Origin: Terriglobia bacterium
GTDB taxonomy: Bacteria > Acidobacteriota > Terriglobia > Bryobacterales > Bryobacteraceae
Assembly: GCA_021324615.1 (NCBI GenBank)
Contig: JAJPIT010000017.1
Location: forward strand, 19,021-83,020
Direction: 5' to 3'
DNA length: 64,000 nucleotides
The position numbers were made by a program, and so were the translations under genes. The notes under the pieces are model-generated. The model was given only the letters and a program-made list of their open reading frames with translations. It was not told the origin of the DNA and made no database searches. Below are positions 20,487-45,864 of this stretch, one piece after another (within the stretch, counting starts at the first letter, position 1; each line of letters opens with the position of its first letter).

Positions 20487-21881
20487 ATGAAGCCGATGCG
20501 TCGATCCATTTTTGGCCTTTTTGCCGCGGCGGTCCTGGCGCATGCGGCCAATCCCACGGCGGACCTGCTGGTGGAGCTGATTCGCGTCGACACCAGCAAT
20601 CCGCCGGGCAACGAGAACAAACTGGATGAGCTGCTGGCGGCGAAGCTGCGGCCGCTGGGCTTCGACGTCGAAATTTTTCCCACGCCCCAGCCCGGCAAAA
20701 CGCACATGATCGCGCGCCTCAAAGGCGACGGCAGCGCGAAGCCGGTGCTGATCGCCGCGCATGCCGATGTGGTCGGCGTGGAGCGCGACAAGTGGACCGT
20801 CGATCCTTTCGCCGGCGTGATCAAGGACGGCTATGTCTACGGCCGCGGCGCGATTGATTTCAAGGGCGGCGTCGCGGTCTTCGCCGAAGCCGTGATGCGT
20901 CTGGCGCGCAACAAAATTCCGCTCAAGCGGGATGTGATTTTTATGGTCGAGGCCGACGAGGAAGGCATGCCGCTCAACACTTCGTGGCTGGCGCAATCGC
21001 ACTGGGACAAGATGGACTGCGAGTTCGCCCTCAACGAAGGCGGCTGGATCATGAAGCGTCCCGACGGCAGGGTGCGCTACGTCAGCATTTCGACCGCGGA
21101 CAAATCCTCGATATCGCTGGTGATGACGGCGCACGGGACTTCGACTCATTCCTCGATGCCGCGCCCGGATCAGGCGATTTTCCGGTTATCCAAGGCGCTG
21201 GCGCGGCTGGCCGACTATGAAACCAAGCCCGAACTGATCCCCAGCACGCGGCAGTTCTTTGCGACCCTGGCCGAAACCAGCGAGCCGCCGATGTCCCGCT
21301 ATTTCGACGATCTGGTCCACAGCAAGGATCCGGCGGCGGTGGCGCGCGCGGACCGCGAAATCAGCAAGGACCCGCTGCTGCACGCGATCATGCGCAACAC
21401 CATCGCGCCGGTGCTGCTGAATGCGGGTTTCCGCAGCAACGTGATTCCCGGCTCGGCCGAGGCGACCATCAATATTCGCGCGATCCCCGGCACCACCGCC
21501 GCGGATTTGGCCGCCGAGTTGAAGAAAGTGATCGCGGATCCGAACGTGGATATCGCGCTGCCGCGCGCCGGCGCCCGCGGCGTGTTGATGGAGCGCTCCG
21601 CCCGCGAATCGGGCACGGATACGGCGCTTTATCGATCCCTGGTTGACAGCGCCGGCAAGGTCTGGCCGGGCGTGCCGGTGACGCCTTATTTATTTCAAGC
21701 CGGCACGGACGCGTCAGCATGGCGAAATCGCGGCGTGCCGGTATACGGCATTTATCCGTATCCGATCAGCGACGACGATCTGAGCCGCATGCACGGCAAC
21801 GACGAGCGCGTGGCGGTCGACTCGCTGGATCAGGGAACCAATTTCGTTTACGACACACTGTTGCGAGTCGCCGCCAAATGA
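20487..21881 (+). CDS. secreted M20-family metallopeptidase
   Basis: Signal peptide MKPMRRSIFGLFAAAVLAHA. M20 motifs LIAAHADVV, GRGAIDFKGG and EADEEG are present. Confidence 0.8.
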   Translation: MKPMRRSIFGLFAAAVLAHAANPTADLLVELIRVDTSNPPGNENKLDELLAAKLRPLGFDVEIFPTPQPGKTHMIARLKGDGSAKPVLIAAHADVVGVERDKWTVDPFAGVIKDGYVYGRGAIDFKGGVAVFAEAVMRLARNKIPLKRDVIFMVEADEEGMPLNTSWLAQSHWDKMDCEFALNEGGWIMKRPDGRVRYVSISTADKSSISLVMTAHGTSTHSSMPRPDQAIFRLSKALARLADYETKPELIPSTRQFFATLAETSEPPMSRYFDDLVHSKDPAAVARADREISKDPLLHAIMRNTIAPVLLNAGFRSNVIPGSAEATINIRAIPGTTAADLAAELKKVIADPNVDIALPRAGARGVLMERSARESGTDTALYRSLVDSAGKVWPGVPVTPYLFQAGTDASAWRNRGVPVYGIYPYPISDDDLSRMHGNDERVAVDSLDQGTNFVYDTLLRVAAK

Positions 21882-43019: not shown

Positions 43020-43799
43020 TCAGGACAACGCCGAATCCGCGGTGAAGATCAGGCTGGAGCAGGTGACCCCGGCTTCGGCTTTCTGCAACTCGGAGAGATC
43101 GAGAGCAATGACCTCGAATCCCGCCTTTTCGAGCATCCGGCGCGTTTTCGGAAACGACGCCGGCAGGATAATTTTTCCGCCGGCTTCGAGCACGTTTGCC
43201 GCGCTTGGCTCGTCTTCGGCCACATCGAACAACTCCAGCCTGGCGAAGGGCTGCATGTCGATGAGCTTGCGATTGACGAGGACGGCGTCCCCGCCCAGCG
43301 GGCAGATGGCGGATTTCAGGTGCAAGCATCCGCCAACGGCGGCTGGAACCACGCGGTAGCCGAACCGTTCCGTGGCTTGCGCCAGTTGCCGCGCCCCTTC
43401 CGGATTGGTGCGCCGGGAAATTCCGCAATACAGGGTCTTGCCGATGCGCATCACGTCGCCGCCTTCGATGGTGGCCGGTTCGCGGATCCACTCCAGGGGG
43501 CGATACGCCGCCAGCGCCGCCGCGATCGACTCCGCCTCGCCGCGGCGCGATACGGCGCCCATCCGGCATATCACGGCGATCTCGTCGAGCACCACCGCCG
43601 GGTCCTCGACGAACAAACCGTCGGGGAAGGCGGGATCGGGGGCAAGCGAGATGACGCTGAATCCCAACCGCCGCAGGCATTCCTCGTAGGCCAGGTGCTG
43701 CGCGGCGGCCCGGGCCGCGTCGATCGGAGTTCTCGCCAGAAACTCCAGCTCGCAGCGGGTGATGGAATCGCTCACCCGGCGCGTGATCGCGGTCCACAT
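43020..43799 (-). CDS. dimethylarginine dimethylaminohydrolase-like amidinotransferase-fold enzyme
   Basis: 259 aa. The N-terminus MWTAITRRVSDSITRCELEF and FPDGLFVEDPAVV are present. The C-terminal GVTCSSLIF carries the catalytic Cys typical of the DDAH/ADI superfamily. Confidence 0.7.
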   Translation of the reverse strand: MWTAITRRVSDSITRCELEFLARTPIDAARAAAQHLAYEECLRRLGFSVISLAPDPAFPDGLFVEDPAVVLDEIAVICRMGAVSRRGEAESIAAALAAYRPLEWIREPATIEGGDVMRIGKTLYCGISRRTNPEGARQLAQATERFGYRVVPAAVGGCLHLKSAICPLGGDAVLVNRKLIDMQPFARLELFDVAEDEPSAANVLEAGGKIILPASFPKTRRMLEKAGFEVIALDLSELQKAEAGVTCSSLIFTADSALS

Positions 43800-43808
43800 A
43801 ACAGTGTT

Positions 43809-43824
43809 TTGTTATATATTACAG
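43809..43824. promoter_or_regulatory. AT-rich 16-bp near-palindrome (TTGT-TATATATT-ACAG) filling the 33-bp divergent spacer
   Basis: It lies between the DDAH-like ATG (43799, minus) and the response-regulator GTG (43833, plus). It also contains TATATT/TATAAC -10-like hexamers for both directions. Confidence 0.35.
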
Positions 43825-43832
43825 ACTGCTTT

Positions 43833-44522
43833 GTGAGAATTTTGATTATTGACGACGATACCGAGTTGTGTGCGCTGCTCGATGAGTTTCTGAGCCGCGA
43901 GGGGTTTGAGACCAATGTGGCCCACGATGGCGCGCGCGGGCTGGAACGGGCCCGGACGGAAGCCTTCGACCTGGTCGTGCTGGATCTGATGCTGCCGCAG
44001 ATGGACGGATTGGCGCTGCTGCGCCAGCTTCGCGAGGTGAGCCGCGTGCCGGTGATCATCCTGACCGCGCGCGGCGAAGGCGAGGATCGCATCGCCGGGC
44101 TGGATTCGGGCGCCGACGACTATCTTGGCAAACCGTTCAATCCGCGCGAGCTGGTGGCGCGCATCCGGGCCGTTCTGCGGCGGGCGGCGCAGCGGCGCGG
44201 GCCCGTCGATGTGAACGGCGTCAGGCTCGATCCGGGAACGCGCGAGGTCTACTGCGACGGCCGCCGCGTCGAACTGACCACGCTCGAATTCGACATTCTG
44301 TAGCAACTGATGCGCTCGGCCGGCCAGGTGGTTTCGCGCGACGCGCTGATGAGCAGCATGTACAACCGCAAGGCCTCGCCCTTTGACCGCTCCATTGACA
44401 TGCACGTCAGCCATCTGCGCCGCAAGCTGGAAGCTCCGCGCGTGCTGATCAAGACCATTCGCGGCAGCGGCTATCAGTTCTGCAAATCCTCGGACGATTC
44501 GGCCGAGCGCGCCGCGACGTGA
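43833..44522 (+). pseudogene. OmpR/CpxR-family response regulator interrupted by an in-frame TAG (44301-44303)
   Basis: The receiver domain (VRILIIDDDTELCALL...DLVVLDLMLPQMDG...) and the winged-helix domain (QLMRSAGQVVSRDALMSSMYNRKASPFDRSIDMHVSHLRRKLE...IRGSGYQF) are in the same reading frame. They are separated only by TAG: ...TTLEFDIL*QLMRSAG.... Confidence 0.6.
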
Positions 44523-45808
44523 CGCTCTTCGCCAAAATTTTGGCCTGGTTCGTCATCGCGGTGCTGGCGACCGTGGCGGCGGCGGCGGCAACTTCCGTGC
44601 TGAGCTATAACCCGGCCTCGCCGCTGAGCGCGCCGTTCACCGTGTTGATGAAGATGGAGGCGGCCGAGGCGCGCCAGGCCTGGGAGGGCGGCGGGCGCGA
44701 TGCCCTGCGCCGCGCGCTCGATCGTTTTCTCCAGGTCACGCATTATCACGCGGTGGTCTTCGCCGACGCGCAGGGAACCGATCTGGCCACGGGCCAGCCG
44801 CGGCCCGATCTGCTGGAGATGGCGCGCCGCCATCCGGTGTTTCCGTTCTGGCGCAGCGGCGGGCTGGTATTCGCGGCGTTTTCACCGGACGGCAAATACT
44901 GTCTGCTGCTGATCACCCGGCCGCTGCGCCTGATTTACTCCAATCTTCAGCCGCTGCACCTGCTGGTGCTGGCGCCCGTTCTGGCGCTGTGCTACGCGCT
45001 CGCCTACTACCTCACCTCGCCGCTGCGGCCGCTGCAGCGGGCGGTGGAAAAGTTCGGGCGCGGCGACCTGTCGGCGCGCGCCCCCGCCGGCCGCAACGAC
45101 GCGTTCGGGGAGGTGGCCCGCACCTTCAATCAAATGGCGGAGCGCATGCAGAGCCTGCTGAGCGCCCAGCAGCGGCTGCTTCTGGATATCTCGCACGAGC
45201 TGCGCAGCCCCCTGGCGCGGCTGAGCGTGGCCATCGAACTGGCGCGAACCGGCGGCGCTTCTCTGGATCGGATACAGAAGGAAGCCGACCGTCTGAATGA
45301 ATTGATCGCGGAGATGCTCGAGGTCGCACGCATGGAGAACGATCCGGCAAGCCGCAAGGCCGAAGCGGTGCGGCTCGACGAGCTGGTCGGCGTATTGATT
45401 CACGATTGCCGCATCGAAGCCCAGGCGCGGGGATGCTCGCTCGAGCTGGATCCCGGCGGCGGCGTGTGGGTGGAAGGCGACCGCGAGCTGCTGCGGCGGG
45501 CCATTGAAAACGTCATGCGCAATGCGATCCGCTACGCGCCGGCGGATACGCGGGTTGAAGTGGCGCTCGAACACGCCGAGGGCCGGGCCTGCGTGCGGGT
45601 CCGCGATTACGGCCCCGGCGTTCCCGACGCCGCGCTGGCGCGCATCTTCGATCCGTTTTACCGCGTCGAGGCGGACCGCAATCGGACCCACGGCGGCTAC
45701 GGCCTGGGTCTTTCCATCGCCCGGCGCGCGGTCGAGCTGCATGGCGGCAAGCTGCGTGCGTCAAACGCCTTGCCCGGATTGCTGGTCGAAATCGAGCTGC
45801 CCGCCTAA
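44519..45808 (+). CDS. sensor histidine kinase (CpxA/EnvZ-like: 2 TM, HAMP, HisKA, HATPase_c)
   Basis: H-box is ISHELRSPLARL, the N-box is NVMRNAIRYAP, and G-boxes are RDYGPGVP and GYGLGLSIA. The GTG start overlaps the regulator stop (GTGA). Confidence 0.88.
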   Translation: MTLFAKILAWFVIAVLATVAAAAATSVLSYNPASPLSAPFTVLMKMEAAEARQAWEGGGRDALRRALDRFLQVTHYHAVVFADAQGTDLATGQPRPDLLEMARRHPVFPFWRSGGLVFAAFSPDGKYCLLLITRPLRLIYSNLQPLHLLVLAPVLALCYALAYYLTSPLRPLQRAVEKFGRGDLSARAPAGRNDAFGEVARTFNQMAERMQSLLSAQQRLLLDISHELRSPLARLSVAIELARTGGASLDRIQKEADRLNELIAEMLEVARMENDPASRKAEAVRLDELVGVLIHDCRIEAQARGCSLELDPGGGVWVEGDRELLRRAIENVMRNAIRYAPADTRVEVALEHAEGRACVRVRDYGPGVPDAALARIFDPFYRVEADRNRTHGGYGLGLSIARRAVELHGGKLRASNALPGLLVEIELPA

Positions 45809-45830: not shown

Positions 45831-45864
45831 GTCCCCGCGCCCTTCCGGCGCGGGACGGATTTTA
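45831..45864 (+). terminator. intrinsic terminator after the histidine kinase gene
   Basis: The stem GTCCCCGCGCC / GGCGCGGGAC has a 1-nt bulge and a 5-nt loop, and is followed by GGATTTTA. Confidence 0.5.

What the first reader, a model, noticed from the sequence alone, without database searches (positions are those of the whole stretch)
44301..44303. In-frame amber codon splits a CpxR/OmpR-type response regulator at the start of its DNA-binding domain
Receiver and winged-helix halves are in one frame (43833-44522) and read ...VELTTLEFDIL-TAG-QLMRSAGQVVSRDAL.... By my recollection of the OmpR/CpxR alignment (LT..EF.LL..L), the TAG replaces a single residue in the first helix of the effector domain. 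A one-base change from TAC/TAT, CAG, GAG, AAG, TTG, TCG or TGG would create it.

Everything else looks intact:
- an ATG lies 6 nt downstream;
- the cognate kinase is still translationally coupled to the regulator's 3' end (GTGA);
- a terminator follows.

The possibilities are a very recent inactivation, a sequencing error, a receiver-only product, or stop-codon read-through.
Basis: seen in the sequence. Interest (0 to 1): 0.6.

Follow-up and report, generated by a model that had tools for sequence, protein, structure and literature searches.

The report
Stop codon from doubtful base call
The stop codon that splits this ordinary two-component regulator gene comes from one base found only in this draft genome, and it belongs to a genome-wide set of one-strand "T" calls that look like a consensus artefact, not biology.

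Summary
TAG at 44301-44303 lies in frame in an OmpR/PhoB-type (CpxR-like) response regulator (GTG 43833 to TGA 44522), early in the winged-helix domain.

The stop is private to this assembly. Seven other assemblies of the same Centralia coal-fire-soil Bryobacteraceae population have GAG (Glu157) there. Two of them match the window over 20.7 kb apart from that base. Glu or Asp fills this position in 120 of 120 homologues.

At least three more conserved genes elsewhere in the genome carry private stops: two TGG->TAG and one AAA->TAA.

Across about 96 kb compared on four contigs I found 14 private differences:
- 12 are T on the contig + strand and none is A; all 14 go to a later letter of the alphabet.
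- 92 natural strain differences show no such bias (Fisher p = 4e-8).
- The private changes sit in codons as random hits would.

A bias tied to the arbitrary contig strand cannot be biological. It points to tie-breaking or ambiguity handling in a consensus step.

TAG ends about 30% of gene-like frames. No tRNA-CUA or PylS was found.

Best reading: an ordinary intact regulator with an unreliable base call (about 0.6). Main rival: a real private or minor nonsense allele (about 0.3). Interest is low.

The parts
43833..44522 (+). OmpR/PhoB-family (CpxR-like) response regulator gene, 229 codons, interrupted at codon 157
   Evidence: Pfam Response_reg 3-112 and Trans_reg_C 143-216. Nearest solved relative is MtrA, 2gwr (E 5.6e-46). 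Intact 229-aa copies identical apart from residue 157 (and the letter written for the GTG start) exist in other assemblies (P0002, P0003).
44301..44303 (+). In-frame TAG. The T at 44301 is private to this assembly; all other assemblies have G (GAG, Glu157).
   Evidence: Residue 157 is Glu in 116 and Asp in 4 of 120 homologues.
44310..44522 (+). 70-codon ORF from the ATG 6 nt after the TAG; it would be a possible restart product only if the stop were real. No Shine-Dalgarno-like motif lies upstream.
   Evidence: A gene call of exactly this 70-aa product, and of the 156-aa N-terminal piece, exists on the NCBI-sourced 85,563-bp contig of this genome.
44519..45808 (+). Cognate histidine kinase (HAMP, HisKA, HATPase_c). 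Its GTG start overlaps the regulator's TGA (GTGA).
   Evidence: The protein is identical in other assemblies.
43793..43820 (+). Sigma-70-like promoter match (TCCACA-16-TATATT) ending 12 nt before the regulator's GTG
   Evidence: one site found; 0.3 expected in shuffles. This is a consensus match only.
45835..45863 (+). GC-rich hairpin (7-bp stem) plus T4 run after the kinase gene; a weak terminator candidate
   Evidence: Not called by the terminator scan.
21194..21194 (+). The only other private difference found in window 13796-64000: G here and A elsewhere (AAG/AAA, Lys, synonymous) in an M28/M20 peptidase gene

Best explanation
The gene is an ordinary, intact CpxR-like (OmpR/PhoB-family) response regulator of a two-component operon. 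The T at 44301 is not a trustworthy base call.

It is one of a few hundred positions, by extrapolation, at which this draft genome differs from every other assembly of the same population. At those positions the base written on the contig + strand is almost always T, and it is always later in the alphabet than the population base. That is what a consensus or polishing step produces in two situations:
- it breaks ties in favour of the last-indexed base (A<C<G<T);
- it writes ambiguous or unknown positions as T.

Where such a call falls on GAG in a + strand gene it creates TAG. On TGG in a - strand gene it also creates TAG. On AAA in a + strand gene it creates TAA.

**Shown:**
- the stops are private to this assembly;
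- the bias is tied to the + strand;
- the private changes sit in codons as unselected hits would;
- there is no suppression machinery.

**Inferred:** the exact software cause, and that the organism's real codon is GAG.
For: 1. **Private stop.** Seven contigs from seven samples or assemblies (JGI, ENA, Logan) have G at 44301. Most show no other difference from the window (two of them over 20.7 kb); a short ENA contig has one more and a short Logan contig four more, all third-position.
2. **More private stops (screen).**
   - AMP ligase, C66:35971, TGG->TAG.
   - HemW-like radical SAM gene, C48:18685, TGG->TAG.
   - DUF480, C65:47142, AAA->TAA.
   - A TAA in an IstB gene (C80:15845) was not checked against other assemblies.
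3. **Bias towards T.** I found 14 private differences in about 96 kb on four contigs.
   - On the + strand 12 are T (from C x6, G x4, A x2) and none is A; the other two are A->G and A->C.
   - The control was 92 natural strain differences: T in 11 of 92, and 47 'up' against 45 'down' the alphabet.
   - Fisher p = 4e-8 for the T share and 2.6e-4 for direction.
4. **No sign of selection.**
   - Setting aside the four stops I went looking for, the private changes are 3 synonymous and 6 non-synonymous.
   - 5 of the 10 sites are at codon position 2, against 10 of 92 natural differences.
   - Natural variants inside this very gene (L007) are 4 of 4 third-position and silent.
5. **Stop direction fits.** In + strand genes the new base is T at codon position 1. 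In - strand genes it is A at position 2.
6. **Mix of stop types fits random hits.** Codon usage predicts TAG 54-57%, TAA 24-28% and TGA 17-22%.
7. **Conserved residue.** Position 157 is Glu or Asp in 120 of 120 homologues.
Against: - The artefact is inferred from a pattern, not seen.
- Gene calls on the NCBI-sourced contig already contain the 156-aa and 70-aa fragments. The T is probably in the deposited sequence, so the faulty step would lie in the submitter's pipeline, which I cannot identify.
- A Logan contig of run SRR24677575 ends exactly one base before the private site in the AMP-ligase gene. That looks like an assembly-graph bubble, meaning both alleles may be present in real reads at that site.
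- The sample is 14 sites, 4 of them ascertained.
- An attempt at independent replication failed.
Confidence: 0.62

Rival explanations
1. The T is a real allele. A very recent G->T nonsense mutation (Glu157->amber) is either fixed in the sampled strain or segregating as a minor variant that the consensus step happened to pick.

The cell would then make a 156-residue receiver-plus-linker fragment without a working DNA-binding domain. That is a loss of function, or at most a phosphate sink. Expression of the translationally coupled kinase would fall unless ribosomes restart at ATG 44310.
For: - The T is present in the sequence, and fragment gene calls exist on the NCBI-sourced contig.
- The rest of the operon is intact and identical to other assemblies, as expected for a very young lesion.
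- Eight of the 14 private changes, including this G->T, run from G or C to A or T (four more run A to T, G or C). That is also the usual direction of fresh spontaneous mutations.
- A Logan contig ends next to another private site, which hints at true read-level polymorphism there.
Against: - No other assembly carries the allele.
- The run of 12 T against 0 A on the arbitrary + strand of four contigs has no biological cause.
- At least four conserved genes would have to be knocked out at once in a genome rated 99.3% complete.
- Natural variants in the same gene are all silent.
Confidence: 0.3
2. The stop is real and is read through, either by a suppressor tRNA or by leaky termination at UAG-C. 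A full-length regulator would still be made. An ochre-type suppressor would cover both the TAG and the TAA cases.
For: - All five in-frame stops found outside selenocysteine-like positions are TAG or TAA; none is TGA.
- tRNA-Tyr and a few other tRNAs are missing from the assembly, so a mutated copy cannot be formally excluded.
- The base after the TAG is C. From my own recollection, not tested here, that is a weak termination context in E. coli.
Against: - None of the 43 tRNAs has a CUA or UUA anticodon.
- The only match to the PylS catalytic family is PheS.
- TAG ends 1299 of 4400 coding-like frames, so it is an ordinary stop.
- The absence of TGA among five stops is expected by chance about one time in three (0.8^5, shares).
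- The sites are private to one assembly and share the T artefact pattern.
Confidence: 0.03

Closest known systems
OmpR/PhoB-family response regulators paired with a HAMP-HisKA-HATPase_c kinase. JGI labels the relatives 'CpxR'; the nearest solved structure is M. tuberculosis MtrA, PDB 2gwr.
   Same: - Receiver plus winged-helix architecture.
- Acid pocket D7-D9, phospho-acceptor D51, T78 and K100.
- Translationally coupled kinase gene.
- Sequence match to MtrA at E 5.6e-46.
   Different: Nothing apart from the single T at codon 157 in this assembly. Orthology to E. coli CpxR itself was not tested; the 'CpxR' name comes from source annotation only.
Consensus or polishing artefacts in draft genomes and MAGs, such as ties or ambiguous positions resolved by a fixed rule
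   Same: - The changes are private to one assembly.
- They are spread over several contigs.
- The base is biased relative to the arbitrary contig strand.
- Codon placement shows no trace of selection.
   Different: I could not identify the software step or see the reads. The specific rule ('last letter wins' or 'unknown written as T') is my inference.
Young nonsense pseudogenes, and natural amber or ochre suppression (suppressor tRNAs, pyrrolysine decoding)
   Same: A single in-frame TAG in an otherwise intact, conserved gene, with an intact operon around it.
   Different: - The lesion is not shared by any relative.
- There is no suppressor tRNA and no PylS.
- TAG is not depleted at gene ends.

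Membership tests
OmpR/PhoB-family response regulator | N-terminal receiver domain (PF00072) with acid pocket, phospho-acceptor Asp, and conserved Thr/Ser and Lys | tested here: met
   Response_reg at residues 3-112, E 5.7e-31. D7-D9, D51, T78 and K100 are readable in the translation.
OmpR/PhoB-family response regulator | C-terminal winged-helix Trans_reg_C domain (PF00486), uninterrupted | tested here: inconclusive
   The domain is present at 143-216 (E 2.1e-22). In this assembly it is cut by TAG at codon 157. It is uninterrupted in all other assemblies.
OmpR/PhoB-family response regulator | Adjacent cognate histidine kinase | tested here: met
   HAMP, HisKA and HATPase_c kinase at 44519-45808, with a GTGA overlap.
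E. coli CpxR orthologue (envelope stress) | Orthology to CpxR, a CpxA-type sensor and CpxP-type partners | not tested
   Only source names ('CpxR') on homologues. No phylogeny or check of the sensor domain was done.
Amber suppression / pyrrolysine decoding | A tRNA with CUA anticodon | tested here: not met
   ARAGORN finds 43 tRNAs in the whole genome, none with CUA or UUA. The assembly lacks a few tRNAs, for example Tyr.
Amber suppression / pyrrolysine decoding | PylS-type synthetase | tested here: not met
   PF01409 matches only PheS, as two pieces at contig ends.
Amber suppression / pyrrolysine decoding | TAG rare or avoided as a terminator | tested here: not met
   TAG ends 1299 of 4400 coding-like frames.
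Real nonsense pseudogene | Stop supported by a clear majority of reads on both orientations | not testable with these tools
Real nonsense pseudogene | Lesion shared by other members of the lineage, or accompanied by further decay | tested here: not met
   All other assemblies have GAG. Over the 20.7 kb compared, two of them differ from the window at no other position.
Consensus / base-calling artefact | Private to one assembly, with a base bias tied to the arbitrary contig strand and codon placement free of selection | tested here: met
   12 of 14 private alleles are T and none is A; all 14 go 'upward' in the alphabet. Natural differences give 11 of 92 T and 47:45. p = 4e-8 and 2.6e-4.

The most novel reading that the evidence does not exclude
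The stops are real. This soil Acidobacteriota strain would tolerate several fresh UAG and UAA nonsense alleles in conserved genes because it carries an ochre-type suppressor tRNA, for example a mutated copy of the tRNA-Tyr that is missing from the assembly, or because its termination is unusually leaky. That would be a natural suppressor strain in an uncultured lineage.
Probability: 0.02. Interest if true: 0.65.

Novelty: not a real feature. Interest (0 to 1): 0.1.

Why it matters
For the biology it hardly matters: the locus is a standard two-component operon.

It matters as a data-quality warning. This genome is a species representative rated 99.3% complete. It probably carries a few hundred positions, by extrapolation, where the written base (mostly T on the + strand) is not the organism's base. 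That makes false pseudogenes (at least four genes) and false amino-acid changes.

Any other finding in this genome that rests on a single base, especially a T on the + strand or an A in a - strand gene, should be checked against other assemblies.

The same simple test (are private stop-making bases always T on the contig + strand?) could be run on other genomes of this scan that show several 'young nonsense mutations'.

Tried and rejected
**Closed or exhausted**

**Looking for the TAG allele elsewhere**
- An exact look-up of the 156-aa fragment in other assemblies found nothing.
- DNA pattern scans of metagenome contigs and genome contigs returned 0. The metagenome scan's zero includes the G allele, which does stand in JGI contigs, so these zeros are uninformative. 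The tool notes that records of the window's own genome, or of one very near it, may be left out.
- Look-ups through the kinase gene and the DDAH-like neighbour found no contig that ends at 44300 or 44302. There is therefore no graph-bubble evidence at this site.

**Looking for more comparison sequence**
- The genome search on the metagenome loci: records not held.
- Independent replication of the T bias failed.
  - A look-up of an unbiased gene on C13 found nothing.
  - The listing of cluster members flagged RpoB, SecA and one other protein as NCBI-only.
  - The RpoB homology search returned only representatives at 94% identity or less, so the population variant could not be recovered.
  - 'NCBI-only' status may simply reflect different start-codon calls.

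**Screens with limits**
- The Pfam junction screen of 358 same-frame ORF pairs has low sensitivity.
  - It missed the AMP-ligase stop (at a domain boundary) and the HemW-like stop.
  - It recovered the regulator, DUF480, IstB and three Sec-type TGAs.
- The paralogue BLAST screen was noisy because of shadow frames in this 64% GC genome.

**Ideas considered and rejected**
- Genome-wide reassignment of TAG.
- A pyrrolysine system.
- A mutation planted in the window only; the same pattern occurs on three other contigs.

Full report
**1. The observation**

- The window has TAG at 44301-44303, in the frame that opens at GTG 43833 and closes at TGA 44520-44522.
- Read through, the frame gives a 229-residue protein.
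- Pfam finds a receiver domain at residues 3-112 (E 5.7e-31) and a Trans_reg_C winged-helix domain at 143-216 (E 2.1e-22).
- The stop is codon 157, in the first helix of the effector domain (...VELTTLEFDIL*QLMRSAGQVVSRDAL...).
- An ATG follows 6 nt later.
- The next gene (44519-45808; HAMP, HisKA, HATPase_c) starts at a GTG that overlaps the regulator's TGA.
- The 'terminator' after the kinase is only a modest candidate.
  - It is a 7-bp GC hairpin with a T4 run.
  - The scan did not call it.
  - It folds no better than shuffled sequence.
- A promoter-like site ends 12 nt before the regulator's GTG.

**2. What other assemblies show**

- A homology search returned two intact 229-aa proteins. 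They match the read-through product except at residue 157, where they have Glu, and in the letter written for the GTG start.
- I fetched the DNA that encodes them from seven contigs of seven samples or assemblies:
  - JGI 3300005607, 3300005531 and 3300027773;
  - ENA ERZ27279669 and ERZ27279673;
  - Logan SRR5579875 and SRR5579884.
- All seven have G at 44301, giving GAG.
- Two of them match the window over 20,690 bp apart from that base.
- Over window 13796-64000, and on to the contig end, there is only one other private difference: a silent AAG/AAA at 21194.
- Residue 157 is Glu in 116 and Asp in 4 of 120 homologues.
- The samples are soils over the Centralia, Pennsylvania, coal-seam fire (PMC11237453).
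- Source names place the relatives in Bryobacteraceae.

**3. Is TAG decoded differently here? No.**

- The whole genome is 3.94 Mb in 127 contigs, 63.6% GC, rated 99.31% complete and 0.81% contaminated.
- It has 43 tRNA genes. None has a CUA or UUA anticodon.
- The PylS catalytic family matches only PheS.
- TAG ends 1299 of 4400 coding-like frames.

**4. Other broken genes**

I screened the genome for stops flanked on both sides by coding-like sequence in the same frame. The 358 candidates were tested by paralogue BLAST, by reading them and by Pfam scans across the junction.

- Most candidates are ordinary neighbouring genes.
- True in-frame stops in otherwise intact genes were:
  - the regulator;
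  - an AMP-dependent ligase (C66, TAG);
  - a HemW-like radical-SAM gene (C48, TAG);
  - a DUF480/YceH gene (C65, TAA);
  - an IstB gene (C80, TAA).
- Three TGAs sit at Cys positions, in FdhA, a peroxiredoxin and a DsbA-like protein. Together with two tRNA-Sec genes and a SelB-like gene, these look like selenocysteine.
- Other assemblies have sense codons at the three sites I could check:
  - TGG in the AMP ligase;
  - TGG in the HemW-like gene;
  - AAA in DUF480.
- Codon usage predicts that random nonsense hits are TAG 54-57%, TAA 24-28% and TGA 17-22%. Three TAG plus two TAA is therefore unremarkable.

**5. The decisive pattern**

I compared about 96 kb on four contigs and found 14 positions at which this genome differs from all other assemblies.

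- On the contig + strand the base here is T at 12 of them (replacing C six times, G four times and A twice). It is never A.
- The other two differences are A->G and A->C.
- All 14 changes therefore go to a later letter of the alphabet.

As a control I took 92 differences between this genome and contigs of visibly divergent strains.

- This genome's base at those sites is C 31, G 28, A 22 and T 11.
- The changes go 'up' 47 times and 'down' 45 times.
- Most sit at third codon positions.
- The two sets differ at p = 4e-8 for the share of T and p = 2.6e-4 for direction.

The private changes also ignore selection.

- Without the four stops I went looking for, they are 3 silent and 6 amino-acid-changing.
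- Half lie at second codon positions.
- By contrast, the four natural variants inside this very regulator gene, in the SRR5579884 contig, are all silent third-position changes.
- The stops follow the same rule. In + strand genes the new base is T at codon position 1. In - strand genes it is A at position 2, which is T on the + strand.

**6. Interpretation**

Contig orientation is arbitrary, so no mutation process or DNA-damage process can prefer T over A on the + strand of four separate contigs. A software rule can. Two candidates:
- a consensus step that resolves ties in favour of the last-indexed base (A<C<G<T), which explains all 14 sites;
- ambiguous or unknown positions written as T, which explains 12 sites and leaves two ordinary silent-type SNPs.

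This is inference; I could not see the reads or the pipeline.

- Gene calls of the 156-aa and 70-aa regulator pieces, and of the two DUF480 pieces, exist on NCBI-sourced contigs of exactly this genome's contig lengths. The T is therefore probably in the deposited sequence and was not introduced by this scan.
- One Logan contig of run SRR24677575 ends exactly one base before the private site in the AMP-ligase gene. That suggests a real graph bubble there.
- At some sites, then, the T may be one of two alleles in the reads. This fits tie-breaking, and it also leaves room for real minor alleles.

**7. Consequence if the stop were real (inference only)**

- The product would be a 156-residue receiver-plus-linker fragment lacking helices 2 and 3 and the wing, and so unable to bind DNA.
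- Premature termination 216 nt before the coupled kinase start would lower kinase translation, unless ribosomes restart at ATG 44310. That ATG has no Shine-Dalgarno-like motif.

**8. Verdict**

- The best reading is an ordinary intact regulator with an unreliable base call (0.62).
- The main rival is a real private or minor nonsense allele (0.30).
- Read-through or suppression is very unlikely (0.03).
- Interest is low. The useful by-product is a warning about single-base features in this genome.

Noticed in passing
genome contigs C66:35970-35972 (-), C48:18684-18686 (-), C65:47142-47144 (+); outside the window: Three more conserved genes carry a stop private to this genome: an AMP-dependent ligase (TGG->TAG), a HemW-like radical-SAM gene (TGG->TAG) and a DUF480/YceH gene (AAA->TAA). 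Other assemblies have sense codons.
   Followed up: yes
genome contig C80:15845 (+): In-frame TAA inside an IstB (IS21 helper ATPase) gene, just before the Walker A motif. I did not check whether it is private; it fits the + strand T pattern.
   Followed up: partly
genome contigs C87:34927 (+), C50:25640 (+), C113:112232 (-); tRNA-Sec at C54:1445-1543 and C91:56256-56350: In-frame TGA at Cys positions of formate dehydrogenase alpha (ENQARI-U-HSS), an AhpC/TSA peroxiredoxin (FTAG-U-TREL) and a DsbA-like thioredoxin (FSDFQ-U-PYC). There is also a SelB-like GTPase gene starting just after C100:7205 and two tRNA-Sec genes. This is a likely selenoprotein set; having two tRNA-Sec genes is a little unusual.
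   Followed up: partly
genome contig C17:61600-65100 (+): Tandem units of about 92 codons, 58-91% identical to each other, each with an in-frame TGA aligned to Cys or Trp of a sister unit. The coding score is weak and the sequence is Ser/Thr/Arg/Pro-rich, so this is probably a shadow frame of a repeat protein. Not resolved.
   Followed up: no
L017 (Logan SRR24677575_38739), end of contig = C66:35970: A contig from the Centralia Cen21 2015 run stops exactly one base before a private site of this genome. That is the signature of an unresolved SNP bubble, so both alleles may be present in that run.
   Followed up: partly
C48:27197, 27198, 27204: Three private T calls fall within 8 bp (CCG->CTT Pro->Leu, and CGC->CGT). 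This suggests a locally low-confidence or two-haplotype patch.
   Followed up: no
whole genome: Although rated 99.3% complete, the assembly lacks tRNA-Tyr, tRNA-Ile and a few others. PheS is split across two contig ends (C5, C62).
   Followed up: no
It would be worth testing whether the stop-making base there is also always T on the contig + strand.
   Followed up: no
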